A stretch of DNA of 64,000 nt from a virus. Its lineage: Duplodnaviria > Caudoviricetes. The notes under the pieces were generated by a model that saw only the letters and a list, made by a program, of their open reading frames with translations, was not told where the DNA came from and searched no databases. This document shows positions 40,717-58,215 of this stretch, one piece after another. The number at the start of each line of letters is the position of its first letter. Positions within the stretch are counted from its first letter, which is position 1. The stretch lies in the IMG/VR virus record IMGVR_UViG_3300025030_000042, one strand, 5' to 3'. The position numbers and the translations under genes were made by a program.

Positions 40717-40717
40717 T

Positions 40718-40975
40718 TTATGCTCCTTGTTTTACGAATTTGTAAAATCTAAATTCAGCATTACCATTATATTCCGAATACATTTCTTTACACATTATTG
40801 GACCTTGATCATATAAAAAATGTAAATATCTGAAATCATCGATATCTTTTTCAATAACGATTGACCACCAAAACCAATCATCGTGTTTTGAAGAAATCAC
40901 ATAGATCATATCGCCGATTTCCACATCATCGGCGGAAGACACGAGCAACCACTTGCCGGGTGGCAGTTTCACCAT
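40718..40975 (-). CDS. Hypothetical protein, KxGD-like
   Basis: VEIGDMIY; downstream of promoter 40982-41010. Confidence 0.5.
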   Translation of the reverse strand: MVKLPPGKWLLVSSADDVEIGDMIYVISSKHDDWFWWSIVIEKDIDDFRYLHFLYDQGPIMCKEMYSEYNGNAEFRFYKFVKQGA

Positions 40976-40981
40976 ATTTAG

Positions 40982-41010
40982 AGAATAGCAGAGAGAGGTG
41001 GTGGTGTCAA
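40982..41010 (-). promoter_or_regulatory. Sigma70-type promoter
   Basis: TTGACA-17-TATTCT with extended -10 TG. Confidence 0.65.
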
Positions 41011-41028
41011 GAAGAAAAAACTAAAGGG

Positions 41029-44000
41029 TTATGAGCACTTACTATATCCACAATGTATACAAGAAACACACCCCTCTTTGTAGTTGAGAGCATCTTCTTG
41101 CTTACATTCTGGGCAAACTTTATCTCCCTCTGGTTTTTCTCCGTCTAAAATATATGTTTTTAACACTCTCGCAATACAGCGAGAAAACGAAAACATATCA
41201 CTATCTTTGTCCTTTTGAAGTTGTTCTACAATATAGTTTATCTTAGCTCCGTGTCGTAAACCCAAAGAAATCATTCGAGTTAATGCGGAATGATTTGGAT
41301 TATCAAAAATCTCAATAACATCTTTGATAACAATCTCGCTACCGTTCTCTCCAATTCTTAAATCATAAACATTTTTTTTAGTTTTATATTTTCGTTTTTC
41401 CAAAGATGCTTTTTTATAAGATTTGGGAACTTCAATATATTTCGATAACCCCCCAATAACTTCATATGGTTTATCTTCCATAAGACCAACAGCAATCGTC
41501 CAGTTTTCTCCTTTAAACTTCATTTGATGAATATCGCATAAAAGTTTATCTGGTCTTTTGGGGGCGTTATATTGAGGAAATATTTCATTTACATTTTGTT
41601 TTTTTTCATTATTTGCAATAAGGACTCCAGAGCGTGAACCGTCTACATAAACAGTAATACCCTTTAAACCCTTTTTCCACGCTCTTTTATACAAACTTCC
41701 AACAACTTCAGAAGTTGTTCCTTTTGGAAGATTTATTGTTGAAGAAATACTATGATCAATATTTTGCTGAATAACCGATTGTATATCAACTCTTTTTTCC
41801 CAATCTATTTGATCGCTTTCAATAAAATAATCTGGCATTTTATCTGTACCAAAGAGTGTTAAATATTCTTTAACATTATGATGATAAACTTTATATTCTT
41901 TCCACTTATCTCCAACATCATCTATAAAATCAGCCCTTTCGCTTTTTTCATTATGGTTTAGTTTCCTTCTACGAATATAATGATTTCTAAATACTGGCTC
42001 AATACCAGAACTTGTTTGGCTGATAACAGATACGGTGCCAGTAGGAGCATTAGTCAGTAAAGAAATATTTCTTCTACCTCTTTTTTGAATATCTTTTTGT
42101 ATTTTTTCAGGAAGTCTTTTAATGAAAAAATTATTTTTTTCTTTTTCCCAATCGAACAATGGAAAACTGCCCCTTTGTTCCGAAAGATTTACACTTTCTC
42201 CATAAGCATTATTTCTTAGTATTTCATATATTTTTCCAATAATATCTAATGATTCATTAGAATCATATTTCATTTCTAAACAGGCAATACAATCTGCTAA
42301 TCCGTGAGTTCCGAGTCCTATTCGTCTTCCAGTCTTACAAGCGTTTAAAAGTTTATTCCATAACACTTTTTCGCTTTCTTCATCTACAATATTCAATATT
42401 TTTTCAAGTTTTTCTATTTCCAAATCAACTAAATCATCTGAGAGTCGAGTAGCGATTTTAACAACTTCAGAAAATTTATTAAAATCAAAAAAAGCATCTT
42501 TGGAGAACTTATTAGATACAAAATGTTTTAGATTTATTGAAATCAATCGACAGGAATCATATTCTGACAGTGGAAGTTCAGAACAGTTTGAAACAAGTAG
42601 TCCACCAGTCCAATATGTATGTTCTTCATCGTCAACCGATATATCATAAACTTCTTGTTTCCCTAAAGATATTATTTCTTTTATTTCATAAGTTATTTTC
42701 TGCTTATTAATGTTAGATCTATATCCCAAACATATATCATCTAGTTTTTTTGATTTATATGGTTGTATAAACCCAATCATTTCTCTAAATTTTCTTCTAT
42801 CAACAGTTATATTTAAATCATAACTTTGACGACACTCATAAACTCCATTTGAAAACTCTACGCATTTTGATTTATTTGTAGTATAATAAGAAGAAATGCC
42901 AATAGAAGAAAGCATTTGTTGAACTTCTCTAATAATCCTGAAACTTGATGCTTTTAATGTAATGCGCGTAGAAACAACAGATCCATTTGCCGAATACAAA
43001 CCTCTTAAAAATCCAACAACTTTATTATAATCACCTTTTAAAAATCTTTCAGGAATATATCTATCGTAAGTTTTTGGAAGTTCTGTAGCTATTATAGTAG
43101 TTTTAACTTCCCATCCATAATCAAAAGCCTCCCTTCTATCTTTTAAAATTAAAGAAGATATTTCAGAAGTAAAATAATCTTGATCATCTTTTCCAATACA
43201 TAAATATACCGATAAATCATTAGATGCTTTATGAACAGTTCCGTCTCCAACAATCATTCCATCCATTATGTCTTGTATATTAATATTACTAGAAGATATC
43301 AGTCCGCCTTTACAAATATCAATAGCATAAGCATTTTTAACTTCTATTTTCTCTCCTTCGCACATTACACGATGATTTTCTGTTCCAATAAAACTTCCAG
43401 CAGTCGTTGAATAATCAAAAACTTCTTTAACTCCTGTTTTCCATTTTTTCGTTATTTTGGTCCACCGCTTCCCCGACCAAACAAAATCACCCTCGCTAAC
43501 TTCTCCGATCGTTGAAATACCATTTGAAGTTAAAACAGTTGCCCAAGAAGGCTGGCAGGGATTGACAGAGACGGATCTAAACGATTCATAACATTCCGCC
43601 GGAAGATTATTTCTTACATTGTCCCACATGATCAACCCGGGTTCTGCTGTATATGTAGCCGATTTTACAATCAAATCCCATAAAGTTTTTGCTTTTATTA
43701 TTTTTGAAACTTTAGGATTATTTGAATCAATCGGAAACTTAAGTTCAAAATTCCCATCCTTCTCCACTGCTTTCATAAACTCGTCAGATATTTTAACAGA
43801 GACATTTGCTCCCGTAGTTTTTTTTAAATCTTGTTTCATTACAACAAATTTTTCAACATCTGGATGTCTTACATCCATTGAAATCATTAAAGCTCCACGA
43901 CGATTATTTTGTCCAACCATTCTACAAACATATGAATAAAAATCAGAAAAACTCCAAGCTCCAGTAGTAGTTCCAGCAGAGTTATTCACTCCACAACCAT

Positions 44001-44424
44001 CTGGACGAAGAGTAGAAATATCTATTCCAACTCCACAACGACGCTTAAAAAGATTAGCAAGTTCCTTCCCTTTGTCAATAATAGAAGACATATTATCTTC
44101 TGGAGATGCGATTACAACACAGTTGCTTAATGATACATTTGCGTAATCATTTCCTATTCCATACATTGGACTACCTTGAGGAATAATATTTTTAAATCCC
44201 TTTAATAATTCATAAATTTCTTCTTCGCTCATAGAATTTGGATATTTTTTTTCTATTCTCGCAAATTCTTTTGCCAATCTTCTATGCATATCATCGGGAG
44301 TCTTTTCTAAAAGATTTCCTTCTTTATCTTTTAAAGCATATTTTTTAATCCACACATCTGTCGCAAGTTCATCGCCATTAAAATATTCAAGTGTAGATTT
44401 ATACACCTCTTCTTTGCTATACAT
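41029..44424 (-). CDS. nrdJ: Class II (B12-dependent) ribonucleotide reductase containing an intein
   Basis: GVGIDIS, RRGALM, NP-C/intein/C-SE, TNAPTGT, GIEP, KGITVYVDGSR, C-terminal Zn ribbon. Confidence 0.9.
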   Translation of the reverse strand: MYSKEEVYKSTLEYFNGDELATDVWIKKYALKDKEGNLLEKTPDDMHRRLAKEFARIEKKYPNSMSEEEIYELLKGFKNIIPQGSPMYGIGNDYANVSLSNCVVIASPEDNMSSIIDKGKELANLFKRRCGVGIDISTLRPDGCGVNNSAGTTTGAWSFSDFYSYVCRMVGQNNRRGALMISMDVRHPDVEKFVVMKQDLKKTTGANVSVKISDEFMKAVEKDGNFELKFPIDSNNPKVSKIIKAKTLWDLIVKSATYTAEPGLIMWDNVRNNLPAECYESFRSVSVNPCQPSWATVLTSNGISTIGEVSEGDFVWSGKRWTKITKKWKTGVKEVFDYSTTAGSFIGTENHRVMCEGEKIEVKNAYAIDICKGGLISSSNINIQDIMDGMIVGDGTVHKASNDLSVYLCIGKDDQDYFTSEISSLILKDRREAFDYGWEVKTTIIATELPKTYDRYIPERFLKGDYNKVVGFLRGLYSANGSVVSTRITLKASSFRIIREVQQMLSSIGISSYYTTNKSKCVEFSNGVYECRQSYDLNITVDRRKFREMIGFIQPYKSKKLDDICLGYRSNINKQKITYEIKEIISLGKQEVYDISVDDEEHTYWTGGLLVSNCSELPLSEYDSCRLISINLKHFVSNKFSKDAFFDFNKFSEVVKIATRLSDDLVDLEIEKLEKILNIVDEESEKVLWNKLLNACKTGRRIGLGTHGLADCIACLEMKYDSNESLDIIGKIYEILRNNAYGESVNLSEQRGSFPLFDWEKEKNNFFIKRLPEKIQKDIQKRGRRNISLLTNAPTGTVSVISQTSSGIEPVFRNHYIRRRKLNHNEKSERADFIDDVGDKWKEYKVYHHNVKEYLTLFGTDKMPDYFIESDQIDWEKRVDIQSVIQQNIDHSISSTINLPKGTTSEVVGSLYKRAWKKGLKGITVYVDGSRSGVLIANNEKKQNVNEIFPQYNAPKRPDKLLCDIHQMKFKGENWTIAVGLMEDKPYEVIGGLSKYIEVPKSYKKASLEKRKYKTKKNVYDLRIGENGSEIVIKDVIEIFDNPNHSALTRMISLGLRHGAKINYIVEQLQKDKDSDMFSFSRCIARVLKTYILDGEKPEGDKVCPECKQEDALNYKEGCVSCIHCGYSKCS
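42586..43557 (-). mobile_element. Cis intein (324 aa) with LAGLIDADG endonuclease in nrdJ
   Basis: Starts CQPSW and ends VYDISV..YWTGGLLVSN|C; internal DGMIVGDG and FLRGLYSANG motifs. Confidence 0.9.
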
Positions 44425-45787
44425 TTTTCTTTTCCTTTATATTCCTTAAATGTTCTTTATATTTTTCTTTAACATCCTTATCTTCTTTCGTTTCAATATT
44501 GTTTCCCAAAATCTTTATCGTTGATGTCGCCGTATCCATAAAAATAGGAAATACAATGCCATCCGGACCATTACGATTCTTTGCTATAAATAATCTTCCT
44601 GTATTTGAGTTTTTGTCTTCGGTAGATCTCGACAATGAAATGACGAAATCAGCAACAAATGTTTTGGCAAAACTTTCAGCAATACCATCTAATCCAATCA
44701 CTTCGGAGTTAAAATTGTTTCTATTAGCTTGACTCGCAGTTATTAGTGAGCAATCATACTCTTGAGCAATAGCGCGCAGGTCTTCAAATATTGCTTCAAG
44801 ATCTAATCTTTTTTCCTTATAAATAGATATTGATTTAAGTAAATCTCCATAATCAACAAGAATCATATCCGGATTTATATCATTTTGTCTTAGTTTTTCC
44901 AAATGATTCCGCAATGTTATAACCGAAGCAGATTTTGTTGGATATTCTTTTATTATAAGTTTTCCCGGAACATCTTTGACCATTTCAAAGACTTGATCTT
45001 TAAAGCGATGAAGTTCATTTATGGAAAATCCAGTTATACAAGAATCAAAACGAGAAGCTACTAAAGTATCGGCAAGTTCAAGCGTATAATAAACGACCGT
45101 TTTGCCCGCTTTGATCGCCTGCGCTCCAAGAAAAACCATCAGTTGACTTTTACCGGTTCCACTTGTAGCGATTATTATTGATAGTTCCCTTTTTCCCATA
45201 CCACCCTTACAAATGCTATCTATTGCTTCCCATCCGGTAGAAATCGGTGCTCTGGATTTTATTTCAAATCTCTTTTCAAAATCCTCAATATAATCATATC
45301 CAAAATCGTTATTTTCGCCCTTTTTAAGAGCATTATTGATTGTTGTGCTTATTTCATCAAAAGAACATTTGTTTAATAAGTCTACCGATTCAAGTATCGC
45401 TTTTTTAAGAACTTGTTTGCGACAGAAATCAAGAGATTTATCTTTTATATATTCTTGATCTCCGACATTATTGTAGTCTTCCGTAGAAAACGATTTCGCA
45501 AAAAAGGAACGAATCTGTTCTTGAACCAAATCATTTTCATCATTCAAATCGGTTCTTATAACCGCTTTCATAATATTGATCGAAGGGTGTATCTTATATT
45601 CAGTTTTGTAATCAAATACCTTTCTCGTAAAAACTTGAAGGTATTTCTGTTCAAAATACATTGGCTCAAGAACTTCTTGTATTTGATTACAAAAAGATCG
45701 ATCCAATAAAATGAGTCTTGCTAAATTTTCTTGAAATGATTTACCGAAGATAGAAAGGTTGGCGGTTTCATTATTTTTATTTGACAT
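44417..45787 (-). CDS. dnaB: Replicative DNA helicase (DnaB/T4 gp41-like)
   Basis: Walker A GTGKS, LIIKEYPT, ILVDYGDLL, TASQANR, KNRNG. Confidence 0.92.
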   Translation of the reverse strand: MSNKNNETANLSIFGKSFQENLARLILLDRSFCNQIQEVLEPMYFEQKYLQVFTRKVFDYKTEYKIHPSINIMKAVIRTDLNDENDLVQEQIRSFFAKSFSTEDYNNVGDQEYIKDKSLDFCRKQVLKKAILESVDLLNKCSFDEISTTINNALKKGENNDFGYDYIEDFEKRFEIKSRAPISTGWEAIDSICKGGMGKRELSIIIATSGTGKSQLMVFLGAQAIKAGKTVVYYTLELADTLVASRFDSCITGFSINELHRFKDQVFEMVKDVPGKLIIKEYPTKSASVITLRNHLEKLRQNDINPDMILVDYGDLLKSISIYKEKRLDLEAIFEDLRAIAQEYDCSLITASQANRNNFNSEVIGLDGIAESFAKTFVADFVISLSRSTEDKNSNTGRLFIAKNRNGPDGIVFPIFMDTATSTIKILGNNIETKEDKDVKEKYKEHLRNIKEKKNV

Positions 45788-46348
45788 TTTCCTCCTTGAT
45801 TAAGAGTTTAATAATAGAAAATGAAGTTTCCAAAAAAAGTTTTCGTTCTTTCGTCCAATAAACTGTATAAAAATATCCATTACCCATAATCTTTAAAACT
45901 ATCCCGATACCAAAATGAGTGCTTAAAGACGGATTAAACTCTACCAAATCTCCGACCTTAAAATAATTTTTGTTCATCGTGCCGAACAATCTTCCATTCT
46001 GGAATATAATATTTAAACATTTTATTTAGTTTAATCCAGAATATCTGATATTCTTCAAACTTTTCTTCAAAATTATATCGTTTATTTATGATTACTCCAT
46101 AATCGCCATATTGATTTAATGGAGGATATTTCCAAGTAATAAGTTCTCCGACTTTAAATACTTCATCATTCCGGTTCATAAAATTCATCATAACTTCTTA
46201 CTTGATCCGGGCATACCATATTATCGGAGTTACTCCAAATCATATATTCTCCCCATTTTTCATCGTTATTGGTATATCCAAGAATAATATTAAATGTTTT
46301 GTTCTTTTTATCTATTATCAATGTTCCTATTTTAAGAAGATCTTTCAT
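45777..46348 (-). CDS. Three tandem KxGDL-family ORFs (45777-45989, 45958-46191, 46166-46348)
   Basis: FKVGDLV, FKVGELI, LKIGTLI ... G(I/V)...(Y/F)W. Confidence 0.6.
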
Positions 46349-47303
46349 TTAATAAAATCCGGTTAAACGAATAATAGAGTTCATCCCAGTTCCACTCTCC
46401 AAGTCCATCATAAGCCATCATAGAAAGAAGTTTGGTCTTATTAAAAATAAGTTCTTTATTCTCCATCATATTCTGAATCATTTGCTTTGATTGAATACTG
46501 ATTGACGGAGAGTATAACTGGGTTATCTTGTAGTTTTCAACTATTTTTTGTTGTTCCCGCACAAGATTTTCATATGCCTTGAGTTTTGATCCTTCATTTA
46601 CTTTTTCTTGAGCAAAATCAACAAGTTCTGGAATAGTATATGATTTATTCTTCGACAAGAAAGAAAACCTATTTGCTACAGTAGAAAGACCGATGCCGGA
46701 AACCCCTTCAATATTGTCTCCCTTATCTCCAGCAATAGATCTTGCTAAAGCAAAGTTTGTCGGATGTATTTTATATTGTTCTACGATTCTTTTTGTATTT
46801 AAAATCTCATCTTTAATGGGGCGATATAAAAGAGTTTTATCACTGTGAAGTAGTTGAATGAAATCTTTATCTGAAGAATAAACTATTTTTTGATGTAACT
46901 CCATAAAATGTGTTTGGCACAAAAAAGCAATAACATCATCCGCTTCAACTCCCTCAATAATGACTTGATAAATCGGCATTAAATCATAATATTCACCAAG
47001 TCTCGTCATTTGCTGAATATTATTTTGTCTCTCTTCATTTTCGTTGAGTTGAAACTGACGATTTAAGCGAAGAGGTTTGCGACCTTGTTTATATTGTTTA
47101 TTGATCGTCCTTCTTTTTTGAGATCCGCCAGCACCATCATAAACAATAATGATCTTATCCGGTTTAGTTAAACGAACGATCTTTTGAATAGATTTGAGGG
47201 TTCCAACGATACCGCCAGAAGGATATCCATCTTTATTCAAGGTTGGATTTACGACATAGTTTCGTATAAACAAGTTTGAGTTATCTATTATTAAGTATCG
47301 CAT
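46332..47303 (-). CDS. 5'-3' exonuclease / flap endonuclease (Pol I N-terminal domain or T4 RNase H-like)
   Basis: LIIDNSNL, YDGAG, YKQGR, EADDVIA, SSDKDFIQL, GDKGDNIEGV.GIG. Confidence 0.92.
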   Translation of the reverse strand: MRYLIIDNSNLFIRNYVVNPTLNKDGYPSGGIVGTLKSIQKIVRLTKPDKIIIVYDGAGGSQKRRTINKQYKQGRKPLRLNRQFQLNENEERQNNIQQMTRLGEYYDLMPIYQVIIEGVEADDVIAFLCQTHFMELHQKIVYSSDKDFIQLLHSDKTLLYRPIKDEILNTKRIVEQYKIHPTNFALARSIAGDKGDNIEGVSGIGLSTVANRFSFLSKNKSYTIPELVDFAQEKVNEGSKLKAYENLVREQQKIVENYKITQLYSPSISIQSKQMIQNMMENKELIFNKTKLLSMMAYDGLGEWNWDELYYSFNRILLNERSS

Positions 47304-47841
47304 ATGTCTCTTCGTTGTATTTTGCCAAGTTAAAATCCGACGTATAATAGAAATTTGGTCGATAATTTATCCAATAAACCAAATAAGAATGTCTTTTCGG
47401 GCGTTTTTTAAGTATTATTCCAATGTTTAGTTTTTTTAATAATATCAGTTCTACTTTATGATAAACCAAATCTCCAACATTTAAATCTGGTATCATTATT
47501 ATTTAACGACTTCAATGTAAGGTGATGACTTTTCACAGAATGTCGCTCTTTTGATATCAATCCAATATACCCAATATTGTAAATAATCTTCTTTAAAAAC
47601 TATTCCATAGCCATTTTTAATATCATCATCTCCCGACCAAAGTATCAAACTACCTATTTTCATTTTCATTATTTAAAATAGTCCAATATTCTTTAATATC
47701 ATTTTTTGATTGAATAGTAAAATAACCACTATATTTTTTTGTAATATTAAAAGTATAAATTCTAAAGTATTGAGCAGTAGTTTGAATTATTATTCCAAAA
47801 TAATCACTATTAAAATATCTTATCAAATCTCCGATTTTCAT
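47281..47841 (-). CDS. Three tandem KxGDL-family ORFs (47281-47496; 47499-47663, not in ORF track; 47650-47841)
   Basis: MIPDLNVGDLV, MKIGSLIL..GYGIV..WVYWI, MKIGDLI. Confidence 0.6.
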
Positions 47842-47843
47842 TT

Positions 47844-48260
47844 TTATAACTTCAAAATGCCGATCTTGTTATCATCCATCGTGTATACAATCTTTTTAAT
47901 ACCGCAAAACTTCATAATGCCATAACACATTGAACAAGGTTTTGACAAACGAAATTCGCCCTTTGTATTGATTCTAACGACATAAAGGGTTGATCCATAT
48001 GTCAACGATCGACTTATTCCCAATATCGTCTTTATTTCAGCGTGACGACTGGAAAATCTATTTTCTTTCTTTTCGCAAAACCTTTTTGAAAAGGCGCAAA
48101 ACTCTTTATCATTATAAGAAGCGTTTATAATCGCACCACCGCGTACAAGAACGGCACCGTGGCGCCACTTGTCGTATGTGCTTTGATACGCCTGACGCCG
48201 AGCAAGTTCCAGATAACGACTTATTTTATGGGATATTGGAATCTCTATTGAAGCAGACAT
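47844..48260 (-). CDS. Second Zn-dependent cytidine/deoxycytidylate deaminase-family protein
   Basis: RHGAVLV, RHAEI, SKPCSMC. Confidence 0.85.
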   Translation of the reverse strand: MSASIEIPISHKISRYLELARRQAYQSTYDKWRHGAVLVRGGAIINASYNDKEFCAFSKRFCEKKENRFSSRHAEIKTILGISRSLTYGSTLYVVRINTKGEFRLSKPCSMCYGIMKFCGIKKIVYTMDDNKIGILKL

Positions 48261-48291
48261 CTTTTTTGCCTTTCTTGGATGTCACTTCTAT

Positions 48292-48320
48292 AGAATAGCA
48301 CTACTCTCCTTCTTTGTCAA
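48292..48320 (-). promoter_or_regulatory. Sigma70-type promoter at the recA 3' end
   Basis: TTGACA-17-TATTCT with extended -10 TG. Confidence 0.65.
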
Positions 48321-49461
48321 GAACAGAAAACACTGTGTTTTCGGGAGGTTCCAGCATATCGTCATCGCGTTCGGGACGATCGGTTCCCTTCTCTATCAAA
48401 ACTTCGTCCATAATCGCAAGAACTCGATCGTGAAAACGTTTTTCCTTCAACTTATCAAGAAATGTATTAGATTGAAACTTTTCTTCTGTTCCATCTCCCA
48501 TATCCATCGTAAACCAAGCACCACTGTTCTTTACATAAGAAGTTGATTTAATCGCTTCCATCCAACTTTCTTGATCCATAATACCAAGTTTATCGCCAGC
48601 CCATAGAATCTTGAAACTACAAGTTCTTCCCTCTCTCCCGAACCTTGATTTTTTAATAGTCGCTTTTACCTCAGATCCGATTTGTTGTTCATTTTCATCT
48701 AAAATATAACTTGCTTTACCGCGACGCATTGTTAGATATATTCTCCAACTTGCCGCAAATATTAAACTCTTTCCTCCGGGGGTTACATACGGATCAATAT
48801 ATTTTTCTGCGACGCTATTTGTAATATTTGTTTTTAGTTGATTTAATACCAGTAATATTGAGCCGTGATTTGCCAATGGAATAACAAGTTTTGAAAATCC
48901 TTTGGATAATATCCTTGCCTTAACCCCTATAGATGAGTTAGGATTAAAATCTCCTTCAATATCGTTTATTGAAGGAGTCATCGCCAATGAATCCCAGATA
49001 AATATATATGGCTTTGGGCTTTGCCCCATAAGTTCTTCTATTGTCTCTAAAACATATTCTACACTTGTTGCTTGAACATAAATAAAATCATCAAGATCTA
49101 TTCCCATTCGTTGAATAAATCCACTGTCGATCGCAGACTCGGAATCAAAATATACGACCGTATATCCTTTCTTCATAGCATTTCCGGCAATCTGGATTGC
49201 CATATAAGATTTGCCCGATCCAGAAAGCCCACTTAACTCTATAATTTTAGATTTTGGAACTCCCCCCATTTGTCCCTTACAAATAATACTATCCAACCAA
49301 CGCGAACCAGTAGATATCCATTCTTTGACATCGGTTGGATTTTCTTTGGTTAAATCGTAAGCAACGGTCATTCCTGCTTTTTTATTTATTCTATCGCGGA
49401 GTTCTTGAATGGAAGGTGCTTTATCGTTATTTTCGTCTTTTTCTTTCTTTGGTCTCGCCAT
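48301..49461 (-). CDS. recA: RecA/UvsX recombinase
   Basis: IELSGLSGSGKS, YFDSE, IWDSLA, LNQL, TPGGK. Confidence 0.93.
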   Translation of the reverse strand: MARPKKEKDENNDKAPSIQELRDRINKKAGMTVAYDLTKENPTDVKEWISTGSRWLDSIICKGQMGGVPKSKIIELSGLSGSGKSYMAIQIAGNAMKKGYTVVYFDSESAIDSGFIQRMGIDLDDFIYVQATSVEYVLETIEELMGQSPKPYIFIWDSLAMTPSINDIEGDFNPNSSIGVKARILSKGFSKLVIPLANHGSILLVLNQLKTNITNSVAEKYIDPYVTPGGKSLIFAASWRIYLTMRRGKASYILDENEQQIGSEVKATIKKSRFGREGRTCSFKILWAGDKLGIMDQESWMEAIKSTSYVKNSGAWFTMDMGDGTEEKFQSNTFLDKLKEKRFHDRVLAIMDEVLIEKGTDRPERDDDMLEPPENTVFSVLDKEGE

Positions 49462-49496
49462 ATTCTCCTTTCTCCTATAATATCAATATGTTACTA

Positions 49497-49581
49497 CTGT
49501 GAGAGTAGGATTCGAACCTATGATGGGCTTTTCGCCAACAGATTAACAATCTGCTCTCTGCTTCCGCTCGAGTACCTCACA
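49497..49581 (-). tRNA. tRNA-Asn(GTT) with class II long variable arm
   Basis: TGTGAGG/TCTCACA acceptor, G73, anticodon arm GCAGA-TTGTTAA-TCTGT, variable arm TGGCGAAAAGCCCATC, T loop TTCGAAT; 85 nt; CCA not encoded. Confidence 0.85.
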
Positions 49582-49585
49582 TTAA

Positions 49586-49657
49586 ATCCGAAGGTGGAAC
49601 TTGAATCCACATCTCTCCTCTACAATAAGGAGGCTTTACCAGTTAAGCTACTTCGGA
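49586..49657 (-). tRNA. tRNA-like gene, probable Thr(TGT), with atypical anticodon arm
   Basis: TCCGAAG/CTTCGGA acceptor, GCTT-AACTGGTA-AAGC D arm, CTCCT-TATTGTAG-AGGAG arm, GTGGA-TTCAAGT-TCCAC T arm. Confidence 0.7.
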
Positions 49658-49675
49658 TTTTATTCTATTATTTAG

Positions 49676-49927
49676 TTAGTTAAGCCAACTCCAGTTTTCT
49701 CGTCGCACAATACGACCCACCTGCGAACGAGAAACATAAAATGCTTCAGCAAGTTCGGATTGAGTCCAACCTTGTCGATAAAGAATCCGAATTCTCTTAA
49801 CTTCTCCCGGAGTTAAAAACGCATGTGAACTTGGAAGCGCATTCGTTTGACGGACTACCGCAAATCCAAGATTTCGCAGTGTCTTGGTGAGATCTGATAC
49901 TGACGCTGTTGTGTTTGTTCGTGACAT
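49676..49927 (-). CDS. Helix-turn-helix DNA-binding protein (GC-rich gene)
   Basis: LTPGEVKRIR...TQSELAEAFYVSRSQVGRIV; GGAGG RBS. Confidence 0.75.
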   Translation of the reverse strand: MSRTNTTASVSDLTKTLRNLGFAVVRQTNALPSSHAFLTPGEVKRIRILYRQGWTQSELAEAFYVSRSQVGRIVRRENWSWLN

Positions 49928-49957
49928 ATTTTCCTCCATTGGTTATGTCTACTTTTT

Positions 49958-49986
49958 CTATCGCTCAACCATTACCTATCGCTCAA
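49958..49986. repeat. 11-nt direct repeat CTATCGCTCAA x2 upstream of the HTH gene
   Basis: Copies at 49958-49968 and 49976-49986. Confidence 0.6.
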
Positions 49987-50002
49987 ATCAAATACTCAAT
50001 TG

Positions 50003-50203
50003 TTAAACTTCTTTTACAGACGATAAGTTACTTACACTCATCCAGTTTGAAAATGTAGCGACCAACGATACATCTTCCTTTTCTTTTGTGCCGTTCAAAA
50101 ATGTAAGATATCCTTCATTAACAGAATATCTCTCTGCTTTAACTTCAAAGCGCTTTCCTGGTTGTTCTGGAGTTGGAAGTAATTCCACTACAAAAGTTTT
50201 CAT
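50003..50203 (-). CDS. Hypothetical protein
   Basis: 66-aa ORF abutting the SSB gene. Confidence 0.55.
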   Translation of the reverse strand: MKTFVVELLPTPEQPGKRFEVKAERYSVNEGYLTFLNGTKEKEDVSLVATFSNWMSVSNLSSVKEV

Positions 50204-50204
50204 T

Positions 50205-50987
50205 TTATTCTCCTGTTAACTCTTGAAATGCTTTCTCGATCGAATCCATTTCATTACTACCGGCTTCGTCGCCTTTTTTGCTTCCGCCGGCGGCATACTT
50301 CTTTACCTCTTTTCCAAGGACGTCTCCCTCTTCATCTTTTAACATAAATTCGTTTAAAGTTTGTTCAACCTCCTTACTTGATTTACGCTCATATAAAGTT
50401 GTCAAATCAGGCAGATTTTCAAGAAGCTGCTTTGTTTTTTCTTTTGAATCCGTCATCTTTGACGTATTTCGCTTTGCTTGAATGTTTGTCTTTGCCCAAC
50501 TTTGACCAGGCGCCTTTTTATAGGAAACAACAATATCCGTTCCCTTATCTACATCTGTAATATCCCCGTATTCTGGATCGACAAGCAACTTATAAAGATC
50601 TTCCCAAACCGTTTTACCGAACGACCAAATCTTGGGTGTTTGTTCTTCTTCACCACGAACAAGAATCGTCGCAAAGAATCTTTGCGACACAAACAGTTTC
50701 TTTGCCAGAGCCATATCCTCTTGATTATTTTTTTCTTTGCCGGCGGCATATAACTTGCTGGCAAATGAACAAACTACACAATCATCTCCAAAGTTTCGCT
50801 TTGGACACAATACACCACCACGCGCAATCTCGTAATGAATATGAAAATCCTTTACCGGATCTCCATCGGGAGATGGTAGAATACGAACTACCGCTCCATC
50901 TTCTGGCTTCCAATAGTTTGAACTTCCACCACCTTTGTTTTGGATCTTCTCCATCCTCTCCTTGATCTTATCTAGATTAAGAGCCAT
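50205..50987 (-). CDS. Single-stranded DNA-binding protein (T4 gp32-like)
   Basis: VRILP, HY..CP..GDDCVVC Zn site, KIWSFGK, YGDITD, acidic C-terminal tail. Confidence 0.85.
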   Translation of the reverse strand: MALNLDKIKERMEKIQNKGGGSSNYWKPEDGAVVRILPSPDGDPVKDFHIHYEIARGGVLCPKRNFGDDCVVCSFASKLYAAGKEKNNQEDMALAKKLFVSQRFFATILVRGEEEQTPKIWSFGKTVWEDLYKLLVDPEYGDITDVDKGTDIVVSYKKAPGQSWAKTNIQAKRNTSKMTDSKEKTKQLLENLPDLTTLYERKSSKEVEQTLNEFMLKDEEGDVLGKEVKKYAAGGSKKGDEAGSNEMDSIEKAFQELTGE

Positions 50988-51206
50988 TTATTCCTCCTTT
51001 TGGCATTCTTCTTTAAAATACTTGATCAGATATTCTATCAATTTGGTCCTATCTCTCAAAGTAGAATATTCTTTTTTCTTTTTTAATACCCTCCTAAAGT
51101 CATTGTCGTCCAACATATAATCAACATATTTGTCACAATATAAAGAATCTTCCCAATGCTCGTCTCTCATTTCTATTAGTTGTTGAACAATATCTTTGTT
51201 TTTCAT
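50988..51206 (-). CDS. Hypothetical protein
   Basis: 72-aa ORF. Confidence 0.55.
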   Translation of the reverse strand: MKNKDIVQQLIEMRDEHWEDSLYCDKYVDYMLDDNDFRRVLKKKKEYSTLRDRTKLIEYLIKYFKEECQKEE

Positions 51207-52066
51207 CTTTGTATTTCCGAACTTCGAGATATTACAAACGCAAAACTTTCATTATAATCAGATTCATATATTCCATATGATATTTTACAACCTTTTTGTT
51301 GTTCTTTTTTCCTCTTTAGTTGTTCCTTGATTTTCAAATGAAGTGTTTTATCGGTTTGAAACACTTCGTGAGGAACAACATAGTAATAACACTTCTCCCG
51401 AACTGTGTCAAGCGGAAAAAAAGTTTTTTCTTCTCCACCAACAATCTCCATTACTCCAAGCGTAGAAATCCTTGAAATCATTGAAGTTTCCGACCAATTA
51501 TTGATATGCGACGACGAGCCGTTCAAAAAATTTATAAAATGAAAAGTCCGAACCACCACTTCGTTGATTTTTTGATGATATTCAAACATCGAAACACCAT
51601 CGACTATACTTTTCTCTATTTCTCGGTTACTTAATAAAATTATTTCTTCAAACACTCCTGATCTTGTATATTCCTGAAGAACATTATATACAACTTTTTC
51701 TTGAAGAGATTTTATTTCCGATAAGAACTCTACATCGGGCTTTATATAAAGAATGTGTATTTTTGTTCTATCTTTTATCTTTTGAAGTATCGCCAGAGTT
51801 GCTCCGGAAATAATACTTGCTCCGCAAACGACCACATATGTTTTTTCTTTGATATTCCTAAAAAAAATATCCAGACTTAAATCTGATATATATTGTTCAT
51901 AATCTTCTGGGGATTTATATTTCTTTACTTTATAATGTTTAACCTTCTTGTGTTTATTAGATTCATTATCGATTGTTAAACATTGATAGTCTGGATATTG
52001 AGATATCTCGTTTGCTATATTGACGCCGGATTTTCCTATTCCCAATATTGTTATTTTTGAAGACAT
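51203..52066 (-). CDS. Divergent tubulin/FtsZ-like protein (PhuZ/TubZ-like)
   Basis: ITILGIGKSGVNIA (T1 loop), IDNE, CGASIISGA in place of GGGTGSG, IILLSN, KINE. Confidence 0.65.
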   Translation of the reverse strand: MSSKITILGIGKSGVNIANEISQYPDYQCLTIDNESNKHKKVKHYKVKKYKSPEDYEQYISDLSLDIFFRNIKEKTYVVVCGASIISGATLAILQKIKDRTKIHILYIKPDVEFLSEIKSLQEKVVYNVLQEYTRSGVFEEIILLSNREIEKSIVDGVSMFEYHQKINEVVVRTFHFINFLNGSSSHINNWSETSMISRISTLGVMEIVGGEEKTFFPLDTVREKCYYYVVPHEVFQTDKTLHLKIKEQLKRKKEQQKGCKISYGIYESDYNESFAFVISRSSEIQR

Positions 52067-52067
52067 T

Positions 52068-52262
52068 TTATTTATTTAACTTTTTCCAACCACCAAAACT
52101 TCTTTCTGACCACCAATAAAAACTTTTATTGTTAATAGAATACCAATACATTTTATATGAATGAGGAAGTTTTTTGATATTTATTTCAACTATTATTCCC
52201 AGGTTGTTTCCTATCGCAAACAAATCACCCACTTTATACTTTAACTTTTCGCATTTGTCCAT
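52068..52262 (-). CDS. KxGDL-family ORF
   Basis: KYKVGDLF...LGIIV...YKMYWY. Confidence 0.6.
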   Translation of the reverse strand: MDKCEKLKYKVGDLFAIGNNLGIIVEINIKKLPHSYKMYWYSINNKSFYWWSERSFGGWKKLNK

Positions 52263-53427
52263 AGTTTTTTCCCATTTTCATATTGACGACAAATCTTCCA
52301 AGCGGAGTATCTTTAAACTCTTCCAACAAAGACATTAACACACTTTCATCATCTCTGTGAAAATCCAGTATAACCGAATCAAATATCATAAATGATACAT
52401 ACGATTTTTTATTCTCAAGGATATTATTTAATCTGCTCGCCATTACATTTACAAGATCGGAAGTTACCGACTGGTTTAAATAACTCAAGGCGTGATTTCT
52501 ATCACATTGTATTTTTCGATCAAAGATAGTATTTATTTCATTTTTATTCCAATACATATCGATCATTTTCTGGCGGTTATATAATGTTTCAAGTTTTGAT
52601 TTGGCGTCCATATTATATAACCAAGAAAATGTCTCTTTTTTTATTTGCTCCCGCGTCATATCTGACTGTTTAAAAATATTGTTGCAGTTCCACTCGTGAA
52701 TATCATTTTGCGGTTGTTTCTCTCCCAGCATAGCAAGCATCACGCGGAGGTCGCAAGCATTATAATCAAACTCCACGAAGAAATCGTTATTTGGCAACAA
52801 AACCCGCCGTAGCTCGCGCCGTAGATTTAAAATAGGGAAACTGCCATTTTTTGTTGTGAGGCGCCCTGTGACCGACCCAAAAAGATTATATTCAACGTTG
52901 CTTGCCCCATTTTTCACTTTATTGTGTAAAGCAGAAATACCGGCGACATCAAAATTCTGAATCATAAAACTTTTATCAAAGTTTAAGTTTCTATATTTAA
53001 TATCCGCAATAAGTTTAGTTATATCCAACAATAGATCGTAGTTGTTTGGTCTTGAATATGTTTCAAAAACATATTTAGTTATATCCATTTTAACTTTACA
53101 ATATTGTGTCAATATTTCAACAGGAACAAGATCAAAAAAACATACATTATTGAGATTTACTTTCGCTTCAACAAAAGATCGATAATATGCTTTAAGTTTT
53201 TCTTTTATATTATCCCAATCGTTTTTCAAATATTCTGGGCATATTTCATCAATAGGTTGACCACAATATAAAAAAGCATACTCTATATTTTCTTTATGTT
53301 TTAACCATTGTGAATAGTTCCAAGTATGCGAAAGTTCGTTCGGTATCTTATCAAAATAAAGCATACCGCTTTCGTCATAAAAGCCAATACAGTTTTGTTT
53401 GTCGTCAAATGATTGAAAGAAAGTCAA
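52234..53427 (-). CDS. Miniature family A DNA polymerase
   Basis: TGRL, motif A FDYNACDLR, motif B REQIKKETFSWLY, NQS, motif C IFDS; 397 aa; TTG start. Confidence 0.75.
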   Translation of the reverse strand: MTFFQSFDDKQNCIGFYDESGMLYFDKIPNELSHTWNYSQWLKHKENIEYAFLYCGQPIDEICPEYLKNDWDNIKEKLKAYYRSFVEAKVNLNNVCFFDLVPVEILTQYCKVKMDITKYVFETYSRPNNYDLLLDITKLIADIKYRNLNFDKSFMIQNFDVAGISALHNKVKNGASNVEYNLFGSVTGRLTTKNGSFPILNLRRELRRVLLPNNDFFVEFDYNACDLRVMLAMLGEKQPQNDIHEWNCNNIFKQSDMTREQIKKETFSWLYNMDAKSKLETLYNRQKMIDMYWNKNEINTIFDRKIQCDRNHALSYLNQSVTSDLVNVMASRLNNILENKKSYVSFMIFDSVILDFHRDDESVLMSLLEEFKDTPLGRFVVNMKMGKNYGQMRKVKV

Positions 53428-53439
53428 ATCGACACGCTT

Positions 53440-55296
53440 TTATTGTGGAGACATTGACCAGCCACGACATTTGGCTTGTGTTCCTATTGAACCACCACCT
53501 GGAACTCTTCGATAATATATTCTTATATTGCTCGTTATCGGAAATTTTCCAATAGATTCAGAGGCGGTTCCAGAAGCATTACCGGTTGAAAGAATAGTTT
53601 GGGTGGTGCTAGCACCACCGGTTTCAAAACCATCAACCCACCAATAAACATCTCCCCATCCCACCCCGCCGCTTGCTTGTCCCCAAAGCCACATATCGGC
53701 GGATGTTGCAATTGCAGGAACGTATGTAGATAAACTAACTGCTACAGCAGCACCATCCGACCCGTTGCCGGTAGATGCTAAAACCTCAAACATTGAACCA
53801 TATTTGAAATCCCCTGGAGATACATTATAAAACTGTATTATATCTCCCGATCCATCGTTCCGAACTGCCCCAAAACATTTAAATGCCGTAGCATAACTTG
53901 GCGGCCCGCCGGAATCCGGATCGTTCGTGTGCCCCACAAGACCTATATTGTTTCCATCTTGAACACCATAAATATAATACCAAGTCGAATTAGCTTCAGA
54001 TATTGTATCTAATCCTCCAAGACCACTTACGCTTAGTTTAAACGTTCCGGATGAAAACTGTTTTCGAGAACCATTGCTCAAATAAAAATATTCGGTTCTG
54101 CCAGACCAAGTTGATATCGTTATCGTATCGGCGTCGGTCCATACAAGTTTTGGTAACACAATATCGTCCTCCACTTCGATGAAAGTTTGAGCAGACACAC
54201 TTTGTTCTATATGTCTGCCAGTGCTCGCAACTACATTCCACAGATTTGAATCTTGCGATATATCCGTTTTTACTTGCGAGCGAAGTTGTTGTTCAACATA
54301 TGATAATGACCTCGCGGTGTCAAGAGAATTTTCAAGTTCTTTCGTTGTTTTTATTTTCTCTTGTATTTCCGCAAAATTCCAGTTTTTGCCCTCTTCCGAA
54401 GATCTTATATTTATATACACTTCTGTCCAATCAATATTTTCTACATCAGATACAGTTAGATTTTTTCTTTTTGTGATGACCGATTTAGTTTCAAACATAC
54501 CAGATTCTATTTTTTTTTGGTTTGGATGCGATTTTATATAACTCACATAAAACTGTGATAAATATTTTTTTAAAATCTGAATATCAAACTCTTGAGTTTT
54601 ATAATAATAGATTTCAAATAAATCACTTGCCGTTCCTGGTTCATATTTTATACCATATTTCTCGGCATACTTTAACATAGACTTCGAACCAACATTGGCA
54701 ATAATCTGCCAAGGAATGTGTTTATTGATATAAAACCCAAACTTTTCGGCAGCATTTAAATAAAATCCATAATTTGAATCATTTATATATTTTTGTAATG
54801 TTTTTTCTTTTGTTGTATATGTTTCTTTAGCAATATCAATTACAAGTCCACTTACAAATACTGGGCATTTATTTGATTTTACGAATGCCGTTTTCGTTAT
54901 TGGATGTCTTAAAAAGTCTTTTGAAAATAAAATAAACTCATTGATAAAATCTCTAAAGTTTAATATTTTTGAAGATCTATTATTAGTATTGATATATGAA
55001 ACAACGAATGCTTCATATATTTTTGACATATTTTGATGATAGATTTCGTTTAAGTTTTGCCAGGCGCGATATGGTTTTATTTTATCATATACAGAATCTT
55101 TATTTATTCTTCCTTGAACTTTTGCTCTTTCAAAATATTGCTGTAAATCATGAAAAGCATCTACAACAAAATCAGCCGCCATAAATGTTCCTTCATCATC
55201 AATGGGAGATAGATTTGATTCAGAAAGAAATACATAGTTTCCCTTTCGATCAACTTTTCCATAGTTTTGCTTATCATACCATAAATCGATCAACAT
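53440..55296 (-). CDS. Probable virion protein with a C-terminal tail-fibre-like module
   Basis: Composition shifts to G/S/T-rich at about aa 350; GGLDT...STWYYIY pattern. Confidence 0.5.
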   Translation of the reverse strand: MLIDLWYDKQNYGKVDRKGNYVFLSESNLSPIDDEGTFMAADFVVDAFHDLQQYFERAKVQGRINKDSVYDKIKPYRAWQNLNEIYHQNMSKIYEAFVVSYINTNNRSSKILNFRDFINEFILFSKDFLRHPITKTAFVKSNKCPVFVSGLVIDIAKETYTTKEKTLQKYINDSNYGFYLNAAEKFGFYINKHIPWQIIANVGSKSMLKYAEKYGIKYEPGTASDLFEIYYYKTQEFDIQILKKYLSQFYVSYIKSHPNQKKIESGMFETKSVITKRKNLTVSDVENIDWTEVYINIRSSEEGKNWNFAEIQEKIKTTKELENSLDTARSLSYVEQQLRSQVKTDISQDSNLWNVVASTGRHIEQSVSAQTFIEVEDDIVLPKLVWTDADTITISTWSGRTEYFYLSNGSRKQFSSGTFKLSVSGLGGLDTISEANSTWYYIYGVQDGNNIGLVGHTNDPDSGGPPSYATAFKCFGAVRNDGSGDIIQFYNVSPGDFKYGSMFEVLASTGNGSDGAAVAVSLSTYVPAIATSADMWLWGQASGGVGWGDVYWWVDGFETGGASTTQTILSTGNASGTASESIGKFPITSNIRIYYRRVPGGGSIGTQAKCRGWSMSPQ

Positions 55297-55301
55297 TTTT
55301 A

Positions 55302-57863: not shown

Positions 57864-57874
57864 TTTATTTTTGT

Positions 57875-58213
57875 TTAATATCCGAGTATTTGAAGAACTT
57901 TATTGAGAGGAAAGGGAATATAAATGACATCTCCAACATTTATATGTGCTTCTGTTGGTTTTTGATTATAATGAGCAATAACATACCATAAATCAACATC
58001 GCCATAATGTTCGTGCGCCAACTTATAAAAACGATCTCCAGTCTTCCATATATGCCCAATGATATCAAGATCGGCGATTTCTTCAGTGGTCGGATGTTTT
58101 AATACTTGTGTCCGAAACATCCGAATGAAGTTGACACCTCTATCGCGAAAGATCTTCTTATAGTTTTCGTTATCATTTATAGAAACTACTTGATTATCAT
58201 ATCGTCCTGCCAT
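57875..58213 (-). CDS. LysM-like baseplate wedge / tail X protein
   Basis: GDRFYKLAHEHYGDVDLWYVIA..N......INVGDVIYIP. Confidence 0.75.
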   Translation of the reverse strand: MAGRYDNQVVSINDNENYKKIFRDRGVNFIRMFRTQVLKHPTTEEIADLDIIGHIWKTGDRFYKLAHEHYGDVDLWYVIAHYNQKPTEAHINVGDVIYIPFPLNKVLQILGY

Positions 58214-58215
58214 TT

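What the first reader, a model, noticed from the sequence alone, without database searches (positions are those of the whole stretch)
49497..49581. tRNA with Asn anticodon on a class II (long variable arm) body
Seen in sequence: an 85-nt cloverleaf with anticodon GUU, U1-A72, G73, a 3-bp D stem and a 16-nt hairpin-forming variable region. The D arm and anticodon stem closely resemble bacterial tRNA-Tyr (GAGCGG...GAG-A-GCAGA...TCTG). Established knowledge: long variable arms are normally limited to Leu, Ser, Sec and bacterial Tyr. SerRS reads the variable arm rather than the anticodon, and tRNA-Ser has G73; U1-A72 is a tRNA-Asn/GatCAB determinant. Inference: either a remodelled tRNA-Asn that evades host anticodon nucleases or modification, or a mis-acylated tRNA that puts another amino acid (e.g. 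Ser) at AAY codons.
Basis: partly seen in the sequence, partly recalled or inferred. Interest (0 to 1): 0.7.

Follow-up and report, generated by a model that had tools for sequence, protein, structure and literature searches.

The report
Phage asparagine tRNA with extra arm
An uncultured groundwater phage carries a real asparagine tRNA gene built with the long side-arm that textbooks reserve for serine, leucine and tyrosine tRNAs. The same design is annotated without comment in phiKZ and other cultured phages and is common in phage metagenomes, so it is most likely an ordinary asparagine decoder in an apparently undescribed body plan.

Summary
Window 49497-49581 (minus strand) is an 85-nt tRNA with anticodon GUU, U1-A72, G73, a 3-bp D stem and a 16-nt variable arm (ARAGORN; Rfam 39.9 bits).

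It is not unique. It is 80-82% identical to the annotated tRNA-Asn of Pseudomonas phage phiKZ and a relative. At least 80 further long-arm GUU tRNAs turned up in IMG/VR phage contigs. Cultured phages of Cronobacter, Escherichia, Klebsiella and Erwinia carry annotated ones. Only 5 of 120 pattern hits in cellular genomes are such tRNAs.

In a 10-member subfamily, 16 of 23 base pairs show compensatory changes, including the extra arm.

Across the family only GUU and G73, the published Asn identity set, are kept. The Tyr and Leu mark A73 and the Ser marks are not. The arm geometry is Tyr-like, not Ser-like. The phage's GroEL uses AAY at 6 of 7 conserved Asn positions.

So it most likely carries Asn and serves AAY codons (6% of the window's codons). 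Insertion of Ser or Tyr is unlikely. Evasion of host nucleases is untested.

I found no paper describing this design. This scan has already noted it many times on other DNA.

The parts
49497..49581 (-). Class II (long variable arm) tRNA-Asn(GUU), 85 nt, with U1-A72 and G73 and no encoded CCA
   Evidence: ARAGORN. Rfam RF00005 at 39.9 bits. 80-82% identity to the phiKZ and phiHQ tRNA-Asn. Cloverleaf with 99.1% of cells paired and 16 of 23 pairs compensatory in alignment A3.
49545..49547 (-). Anticodon GUU within the loop UUGUUAA (U33, A37, A38)
   Evidence: Direct reading. ARAGORN places the anticodon at position 35.
49522..49537 (-). 16-nt variable arm: 1 unpaired nt, 3-bp stem GGC/GCC, 5-nt loop, 4 unpaired nt before the T stem
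   Evidence: ARAGORN bracket output. Two of the three stem pairs change on both sides in the subfamily, for example GGC/GCC, GAC/GUC, AGC/GCU, GCC/GGC and AUC/GAU.
49585..49658 (-). Neighbouring tRNA-like gene lying 4 nt upstream by the Rfam coordinates, probably co-transcribed. Acceptor, D and T arms are canonical, but the anticodon loop has 6 nt (AUUGUA). It reads best as U33-UGU-A37 (Thr-like) with one loop base missing.
   Evidence: ARAGORN 'tRNA-???', anticodon tg. Rfam tRNA 47 bits at 49586-49657. Fold. This is context, not part of the finding's own gene.
49462..49675 (-). 214-bp intergenic gap that holds both tRNA genes. It lies between an 87-aa helix-turn-helix ORF (49676-49939) and the UvsX-like recombinase gene (48301-49461), all on the minus strand.
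   Evidence: ORF list, PHROG and Pfam hits. No sigma-70-like promoter or intrinsic terminator lies next to the tRNAs, so read-through transcription followed by processing is inferred.

Best explanation
This is a working phage-encoded asparagine tRNA whose body is class II. It combines the Asn-type acceptor end (U1-A72, G73) and the Asn anticodon GUU with a Tyr-like 3-bp D arm and a short stem-loop variable arm.

It is probably transcribed with its upstream tRNA-like neighbour from the long minus-strand transcription unit and processed. Because no CCA is encoded, a CCA end must be added. It is then probably charged with asparagine by the host, either directly by AsnRS (which reads G34, U35, U36 and G73) or, in hosts without AsnRS, by non-discriminating AspRS followed by GatCAB (which needs U1-A72). 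It then reads AAU and AAC, which make up about 6% of the codons in this AT-rich window.

The extra arm is kept by selection in a family spread across unrelated phages. What it adds is not known. My preferred guess is that it changes the tRNA's shape enough to weaken recognition by host tRNA-cutting defence nucleases without touching the Asn identity set.

Shown here: the gene, its structure, its family, and conservation of the Asn marks. Inferred: expression, charging with Asn, and any role for the arm.
For: - Detection by two independent tRNA methods.
- Homology to the annotated tRNA-Asn of phiKZ, in a phage with no other nucleotide similarity to it. Only the tRNA matches, and megablast of 20 kb finds nothing. 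The window phage has UvsX-, SSB-, DnaB- and PolB-like (T4-type replication) genes.
- Alignment A3 of 10 subfamily members: 99.1% of cells pair, against 34-53% when partners are slid. 16 of 23 pairs change on both sides, including 2 of 3 in the variable-arm stem. U1-A72 and G73 are invariant.
- Across 81 long-arm GUU tRNAs, G73 occurs in 74. Pair 1-72 is U-A in 45 and G-C in 35, and pair 2-71 varies freely. The features kept are therefore the anticodon and G73. Transplanting exactly these into tRNA-Lys transfers bacterial Asn identity (PMC9976931).
- In 10 of 11 tRNA-rich phage loci (14 or more isotypes in the fetched stretch) the long-arm gene is the only tRNA-Asn there.
- In the window's GroEL, 6 of 7 columns that are at least 90% Asn in 118 homologues are AAU or AAC. 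Conserved Ser columns use Ser codons (8 of 10) and conserved Tyr columns use UAU (3 of 3).
- AAY is 5.95% of 19,263 codons.
- The phiKZ anticodon arm is identical to that of E. coli asnT.
Against: No RNA data exist for this phage, so expression, processing and charging are not shown. The T stem has an A-C mismatch at 49-65 that none of the other nine subfamily members shows, so this copy could be somewhat impaired. G73 together with a long arm, and G2-C71 in this copy, are also partial tRNA-Ser marks, so some mis-serylation cannot be excluded from sequence. The window keeps the U36-A-A-U-C motif found next to the PARIS AriB cut site in E. coli tRNA-Asn (PMC12409363), so evasion of that nuclease is not evident from the local sequence. 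The host is unknown.
Confidence: 0.72

Rival explanations
1. Dual-identity or mis-acylating tRNA. SerRS reads the long arm and G73 rather than the anticodon, so it serylates this tRNA and some Ser goes in at AAY codons. This would be deliberate or tolerated mistranslation.
For: It has a long variable arm, G73 and, in this copy, G2-C71. SerRS does not use the anticodon, and the long arm is the major Ser determinant (PMC9976931). Allo-tRNAs with long arms and non-Ser anticodons insert Ser in E. coli (PMC5389517).
Against: [quoted passage not shown] Pair 2-71 is C-G in 4 of 10 subfamily members and in 24 of 81 family members, and C2-G71 is a listed antideterminant against SerRS. Arm geometry also differs. 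Phage tRNA-Ser from the same loci have 4-7-bp stems with 1 unpaired nt before the T stem (41 of 52). The long-arm Asn tRNAs have 3-4-bp stems with 3-4 unpaired nt, and this one has 3 bp and 4 nt. Conserved Asn positions in the phage's GroEL are still AAY.
Confidence: 0.07
2. A recently mutated tRNA-Tyr (GUA to GUU) that is still charged with Tyr, or a decaying tRNA-Tyr pseudogene.
For: The D arm, anticodon stem, arm architecture and T arm resemble E. coli tyrV and tyrT. The anticodons differ by one base.
Against: A73 and, in bacteria, G1-C72 are Tyr identity elements, and G73 is an antideterminant against TyrRS. This tRNA has G73 and U1-A72. The same GUU, G73 and U1-A72 combination is kept in 10 diverged subfamily members with compensatory stem changes, which is not what decay looks like.
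Confidence: 0.02
3. Not a decoder. A tRNA-shaped decoy or sponge that soaks up host tRNA-targeting nucleases or other tRNA-binding factors, or a non-functional relic. It would belong with the phage's other deviant tRNA-like genes.
For: Its immediate neighbour has a 6-nt anticodon loop. The tRNA-like gene at 3410-3479 has a 3-bp anticodon stem. This copy has an A-C mismatch in the T stem and no encoded CCA.
Against: Unlike its neighbours, it has a fully canonical 7-nt anticodon loop with U33 and A37, a 7/5 acceptor/T branch and the full Asn identity set. In tRNA-rich phages the long-arm form is usually the only tRNA-Asn in the fetched stretch, which fits a decoding role.
Confidence: 0.08
4. The extra arm is a handle for a phage-encoded partner, such as a private synthetase or a modification or repair enzyme, making the tRNA semi-orthogonal to the host.
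For: Earlier notes of this scan report a stripped-down AsnRS-like gene next to long-arm tRNA-Asn genes in marine phages (unverified). The arm is conserved across unrelated phages.
Against: The genes flanking this tRNA are a small helix-turn-helix ORF and UvsX, not a synthetase. None of the 30 window ORFs I scanned against PHROGs or Pfam matched a synthetase. I could not search the rest of the roughly 211-kb genome, because no whole genome is held.
Confidence: 0.08

Closest known systems
tRNA-Asn of Pseudomonas phage phiKZ (PHIKZ_t02, NC_004629 269557-269645) and of 21 other Phikzvirus records
   Same: Same class II cloverleaf: U1-A72, G73, anticodon GUU, 3-bp D stem with the GAGYGGNAGCA loop, and a 3-bp variable-arm stem. 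Identity is 80-82%, and the differences in stems are compensatory.
   Different: phiKZ encodes CCA, has a 15-nt variable region and a G49-C65 pair where the window has A-C. It sits in a nucleus-forming jumbo phage unrelated to this T4-like phage. It is annotated simply as tRNA-Asn, and I found no paper commenting on its arm.
Canonical bacterial class I tRNA-Asn (E. coli asnT/U/V/W)
   Same: U1-A72, G73, anticodon GUU, and a YUGUUAA loop (UUGUUAA in the window, CUGUUAA in asnT and phiKZ). The phiKZ homologue's anticodon arm is identical to that of asnT.
   Different: asnT is 76 nt with a 4-bp D stem and a 5-nt variable loop. The window tRNA is 85 nt with a 3-bp D stem and a 16-nt stem-loop arm.
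Bacterial tRNA-Tyr (E. coli tyrT/tyrV)
   Same: 85 nt. The D arm (YCGAGCGG...RG), anticodon stem GCAGA/UCUG and T arm are similar. It has a short 3-bp variable stem followed by 3-4 unpaired nt.
   Different: The anticodon is GUA against GUU, and the Tyr identity marks A73 and G1-C72 are replaced by G73 and U1-A72.
Bacterial and phage tRNA-Ser
   Same: Long variable arm, G73, a 3-bp D stem, and G2-C71 in this copy.
   Different: Ser has G1-C72, a 4-7-bp variable stem and 1 unpaired nt before the T stem. The window has U1-A72, a 3-bp stem and 4 unpaired nt.
Allo-tRNAs and other long-arm tRNAs with non-Ser/Leu anticodons (PMC5389517; nematode nov-tRNAs cited there)
   Same: A long variable arm combined with an anticodon for another amino acid. 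Some occur in phages.
   Different: Allo-tRNAs have 8/4 or 9/3 acceptor/T branches and Sec-like D arms, and they insert Ser or Ala. This tRNA has the standard 7/5 branch and a full Asn identity set.
[quoted passage not shown]
   Same: A phage-encoded tRNA-Asn(GUU), here sitting next to a UGU-bearing tRNA-like gene. These anticodons belong to two of the three main AriB targets.
   Different: The T5 variants are described in PMC12409363 as escaping through substitutions at or around the 40/41 cut site, and that paper never mentions a variable arm. Here the local U36-A-A-U-C sequence is unchanged and the difference is an added arm. No cleavage data exist for it.

Membership tests
tRNA (Rfam RF00005) | Cloverleaf that scores above the family's gathering threshold | tested here: met
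   39.9 bits against a gathering score of 29, model positions 1-71 of 71. ARAGORN agrees. 99.1% of cells are paired in A3.
Bacterial-type tRNA-Asn | Anticodon G34 U35 U36 | tested here: met
   GUU at window 49545-49547 in a 7-nt loop with U33 and A37.
Bacterial-type tRNA-Asn | Discriminator G73 | tested here: met
   G73 in the window, invariant in A3, and present in 74 of 81 family members. Rule from PMC9976931.
Bacterial-type tRNA-Asn | U1-A72 (GatCAB determinant; also present in E. coli asnT) | tested here: met
   U-A in 10 of 10 rows of A3 and in asnT. Only 45 of 81 across the wider family.
Bacterial-type tRNA-Asn | Class I body (4-5-nt variable loop, 4-bp D stem) | tested here: not met
   16-nt variable stem-loop and 3-bp D stem. 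This is the point of difference.
Bacterial-type tRNA-Asn | Accepts asparagine (AsnRS, or ND-AspRS plus GatCAB) | not testable with these tools
   Needs aminoacylation assays. Supported only indirectly.
Phage long-arm tRNA-Asn (phiKZ type) | Homology over the whole class II body, with structure-preserving changes | tested here: met
   80-82% identity. 16 of 23 pairs are compensatory, including the variable-arm stem.
Bacterial tRNA-Tyr | A73, G1-C72 and anticodon GUA (U35 critical) | tested here: not met
   G73, U1-A72 and GUU; only G34 and U35 are shared.
Bacterial tRNA-Ser | G1-C72 and G2-C71, and a long variable stem with about 1 unpaired nt before the T stem | tested here: not met
   U1-A72. 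The stem is 3 bp with 4 unpaired nt. Phage tRNA-Ser have 4-7 bp and 1 nt. G2-C71 and G73 are present in this copy.
Allo-tRNA (PMC5389517) | 8/4 or 9/3 acceptor/T-stem branch | tested here: not met
   Standard 7-bp acceptor stem and 5-bp T stem.

The most novel reading that the evidence does not exclude
The long arm is an anti-defence adaptation. By grafting a Tyr-style variable arm onto tRNA-Asn, and in other phages onto tRNA-Lys, tRNA-Thr(UGU), tRNA-Met, tRNA-Ile and tRNA-Cys, phages would keep synthetase identity but block docking of host tRNA-cutting immune nucleases such as PARIS AriB, OLD-family or PrrC/RloC-like enzymes. That would be a second, architectural escape route beside the known point mutations around the cut site.
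Probability: 0.22. Interest if true: 0.8.

Novelty: new variant of a known kind. Interest (0 to 1): 0.55.

Why it matters
Textbook tRNA biology limits the long variable arm in bacteria to Leu, Ser, Tyr and Sec, and several synthetases use the arm to tell tRNAs apart. A conserved, phage-restricted family of long-arm asparagine tRNAs shows that phages routinely break this rule. Long-arm Lys, Thr, Met, Cys and Ile tRNAs occur in the same contigs.

If these tRNAs are charged correctly, they are natural examples of moving an identity set onto a foreign body. That bears on how AsnRS, GatCAB, EF-Tu and the ribosome tolerate the arm, and on the design of orthogonal tRNAs. If the arm protects against tRNA-targeting immunity, it is a new counter-defence principle.

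Homologues exist in cultured phages of P. aeruginosa and E. coli (phiKZ, 4MG), so the question can be tested directly.

Tried and rejected
- Whole-genome search: no genome is held for this window, so I could not list the phage's other tRNAs or look for a synthetase outside the window.
- Megablast of window 40000-60000 against cultured phages: no match.
- Search for relatives through the UvsX-like protein in IMG/VR: no confirmed relative, so there was no synteny test.
- blastn of the tRNA against 5,426 E. coli genomes: only weak partial hits to plasmid tRNA-Lys genes (E = 0.7 or worse), uninformative at this database size. I fetched tyrV, tyrT, asnT and serU by coordinates instead.
- Sequencing runs: no RNA holder is listed. 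DNA holders are groundwater and soil metagenomes. The contigs laid from four runs are identical to the window over the parts they cover, so they give no variants and no evidence on expression.
- Promoter and terminator consensus scan: nothing next to the tRNAs, and counts are no higher than in shuffles.
- The 87-aa upstream ORF shows no similarity to the HNH endonuclease beside the phiKZ tRNA-Asn (E = 3.8). A shared homing-endonuclease cassette is therefore not supported.
- Literature: nine full-text searches found no paper describing long-arm tRNA-Asn in phages. The 1990 paper on converting tRNA-Tyr to tRNA-Ser (PMC332736) is not held, so I do not rely on it.

Full report

Yes. ARAGORN reports tRNA-Asn(gtt) at 49497..49581 on the minus strand. 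Rfam's tRNA covariance model matches the same 85 bases from model position 1 to 71 at 39.9 bits, against a gathering score of 29.

Read on the minus strand, the molecule has these parts:
- a 7-bp acceptor stem beginning with U1-A72
- discriminator G73
- a 3-bp D stem with an 11-nt loop
- a 5-bp anticodon stem with loop UUGUUAA (anticodon GUU at 49545-49547)
- a 16-nt variable region: 1 unpaired nt, a 3-bp GGC/GCC stem, a 5-nt loop and 4 unpaired nt
- a T arm with the usual UUCGAAU loop but an A-C mismatch at pair 49-65
- no encoded CCA

The single-sequence folding energy is only mildly unusual (z = -2.56). The case rests on model scores and comparative data.

**2. Surroundings**

The window is phage DNA. 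Nearly all ORFs lie on the minus strand and G+C is about 0.34. PHROG and Pfam hits include:
- a UvsX-like recombinase directly downstream of the tRNA
- an SSB, a DnaB-like helicase and a class I ribonucleotide reductase
- a two-piece family B DNA polymerase
- GroEL, ThyX and a dCMP deaminase
- a tape-measure protein

Public runs that hold the stretch are groundwater and soil metagenomes. Earlier notes of this scan call it a roughly 211-kb uncultured groundwater phage distantly related to T4 (not verified by me beyond the gene content).

The tRNA shares a 214-bp intergenic gap with a second tRNA-like gene 4 nt upstream (49586-49657 by Rfam, 47 bits). That gene's anticodon loop has only 6 nt. 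No consensus promoter or terminator flanks the pair, so I infer read-through transcription and processing.

**3. It has homologues, and they are annotated tRNA-Asn genes**

A sensitive blastn of the region against 50,697 cultured-phage records hit only the tRNA itself. It matched 22 Phikzvirus genomes at 86-87% over 71 nt, each time under a feature annotated tRNA-Asn.

The phiKZ gene (PHIKZ_t02) and the phiHQ gene are called by ARAGORN as 87-nt tRNA-Asn(gtt) including their encoded CCA. They have the same architecture: U1-A72, G73, the same D arm and a 15-nt variable arm. Differences from the window fall as paired changes in stems.

A pattern scan of IMG/VR asked for TGTTAA, then 19-32 nt, then GGTTCGAATCC. 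That spacing is too long for a class I tRNA. ARAGORN finds 82 GUU tRNAs of 80 nt or more among these loci, the two Phikzvirus loci and the window.

- two lie in dense tRNA clusters on short metagenome-assembled contigs, which look like phage
- two are near-identical archaeal genes whose extra length may be an intron, judged only from their sequence
- one lies in a locus with three tRNAs and was not examined

Further blastn with another body type found annotated tRNA-Asn genes in Cronobacter phage GAP31, Escherichia phage 4MG, Klebsiella phage VIK251 and Erwinia phage Gravdalen. The design is therefore common and largely confined to phages.

**4. The structure, including the extra arm, is under selection**

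In a 10-sequence alignment of the phiKZ-type subfamily (A3) scored against the class II cloverleaf:
- 99.1% of cells form standard pairs, against 34-53% when the 3' partners are slid by 1-3 columns
- 16 of 23 pairs change on both sides
- no shuffle out of 500 reaches any of the observed measures
- the variable-arm stem shows GGC/GCC, GAC/GUC, AGC/GCU, GCC/GGC and AUC/GAU (2 of 3 pairs compensatory)
- U1-A72 and G73 never vary

**5. Which amino acid?**

The published rules (PMC9976931) are:
- Asn: bacterial Asn identity can be transplanted into tRNA-Lys with the three anticodon bases plus G73.
- GatCAB: it requires U1-A72.
- Tyr: TyrRS needs A73, U35 and, in bacteria, G1-C72.
- Leu: LeuRS needs A73.
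- G73 in tRNA-Ser is an antideterminant against LeuRS and TyrRS.
- Ser: bacterial tRNA-Ser keep G1-C72 and G2-C71 and rely on the long arm. C2-G71 is an antideterminant against SerRS.

The window tRNA has the complete Asn set and lacks the Tyr and Leu discriminator.

Across 81 long-arm GUU tRNAs, G73 is present in 74. Pair 1-72 is split between U-A (45) and G-C (35). Pair 2-71 is G-C in 35, C-G in 24 and U-A in 16. Only the Asn determinants are family-wide.

Arm geometry, taken from ARAGORN's own bracket strings, separates the classes:

| tRNA class (same loci) | Variable stem | Unpaired nt before the T stem |
|---|---|---|
| tRNA-Ser | 4-7 bp | 1 (41 of 52) |
| tRNA-Leu | 3-5 bp | mostly 2 |
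| tRNA-Tyr | 3-4 bp | 3 |
| long-arm tRNA-Asn | 3-4 bp | 3-4 |
| this window's tRNA | 3 bp | 4 |

The arm is therefore Tyr-like or of its own kind, and not Ser-like.

Aligned with real E. coli genes, the molecule looks like an Asn acceptor end and anticodon arm on a Tyr-like D arm and variable arm.

**6. Functional context**

- In the window's GroEL, aligned with 118 homologues, 6 of 7 columns that are at least 90% Asn are AAU or AAC. Conserved Ser and Tyr columns use their own codons. The phage's genes are written for AAY = Asn.
- AAY makes up 5.95% of 19,263 codons.
- In 10 of 11 tRNA-rich phage loci (14 or more isotypes) the long-arm gene is the only tRNA-Asn in the fetched stretch. In 24 loci it sits with a class I copy.

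These points fit a decoding tRNA-Asn. They argue against codon reassignment, though they cannot exclude low-level mischarging.

**7. Why the arm?**

This is unresolved.

tRNA-cutting defence systems do attack tRNA-Asn(GUU). [quoted passage not shown] Its second subunit is modelled on the D loop. T5's versions of these three tRNAs together neutralise PARIS (PMC12409363). P2 OLD prefers tRNA-Thr(UGU) (PMC12445682).

The window tRNA sits beside a UGU-bearing tRNA-like gene, which is suggestive. However, its local U36-A-A-U-C sequence is unchanged, and no cleavage data exist for any long-arm form.

In the same phage loci, long arms also occur on Thr(UGU), Lys, Met, Cys and Ile tRNAs. The remodelling is therefore broader than the known nuclease targets. 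I rate the anti-defence reading at about 0.2.

**8. Comparison and novelty**

The closest relatives are the phiKZ-type tRNA-Asn genes, and membership in that family is met. The gene meets every testable tRNA-Asn criterion except the class I body. It fails the tRNA-Tyr, tRNA-Ser and allo-tRNA criteria.

I found no paper describing long-arm tRNA-Asn, although such genes have long been in the databases as plain tRNA-Asn. This scan has flagged the same design many times on other DNA. I re-derived the main points independently here.

**Verdict:** a genuine new member of an apparently undescribed structural variant of tRNA-Asn. It most likely does ordinary Asn decoding. The extra arm's role remains an open, testable question.

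Noticed in passing
window 49585-49658 (-): A tRNA-like gene 4 nt upstream of the finding has perfect acceptor, D and T arms but a 6-nt anticodon loop AUUGUA (ARAGORN '???', Rfam tRNA 47 bits). It reads best as U33-UGU-A37, which is Thr-like, with one loop base missing. UGU is the anticodon of the tRNA-Thr that PARIS AriB and P2 OLD cleave most readily after or beside tRNA-Lys.
   Followed up: partly
window 3410-3479 (-): A third tRNA call, Ile(GAU), scores 43.4 bits in Rfam, but ARAGORN draws only a 3-bp anticodon stem and a poor D arm. This phage seems to carry several structurally deviant tRNA genes.
   Followed up: no
IMG/VR loci L003-L120 (for example L059:8996-9214, L065:7177-7266, L023:4406-4492, L038:1179-1262); Xanthomonas phage X1 OQ427096 140248-140313: The same phage contigs hold long-arm tRNAs with other non-class-II anticodons: Lys UUU and CUU, Thr UGU, Met/Ile CAU, Cys GCA, Ile GAU, Trp, Asp and His. 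Most have a 3-4-bp arm stem and 3-4 unpaired nt before the T stem. A long-arm tRNA-Lys is annotated in Xanthomonas phage X1.
   Followed up: partly
window 29603-30640 (-): A 345-aa adenylosuccinate-synthetase homologue (Pfam PF00709, E = 1.2e-71) falls in the PHROG family labelled 2-aminooxy adenylosuccinate synthetase. From memory, that family is the PurZ type linked to 2-aminoadenine (Z-base) phage genomes, which would hint at modified DNA. A 397-aa family A polymerase fragment lies at 52234-53427.
   Followed up: no
window 31331-36065 (-): The family B DNA polymerase is in two ORFs. ORF 33447-36065 matches profile positions 37-716 and ORF 31331-32581 matches positions 716-1038 of phrog_405. 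A 280-aa ORF (32563-33405) lies between them. This looks like a split polymerase gene with an insert.
   Followed up: no
window 49676-49939 (-) and L001:1741-2223: Both the window tRNA pair and the phiKZ tRNA-Asn lie next to small nuclease-type genes: an 87-aa HTH ORF with weak hits to HNH-endonuclease families, and PHIKZ296, annotated HNH endonuclease. The two proteins are not similar (E = 3.8), so a common mobile cassette is not supported.
   Followed up: yes
Genome-contig loci L180:3188-3273 and L238:3860-3945: Two archaeal contigs (one from a Thermoplasmata assembly) carry near-identical 86-nt GUU tRNAs with G1-C72. Their extra length lies after the anticodon stem and may be an intron rather than a variable arm.
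   Followed up: no
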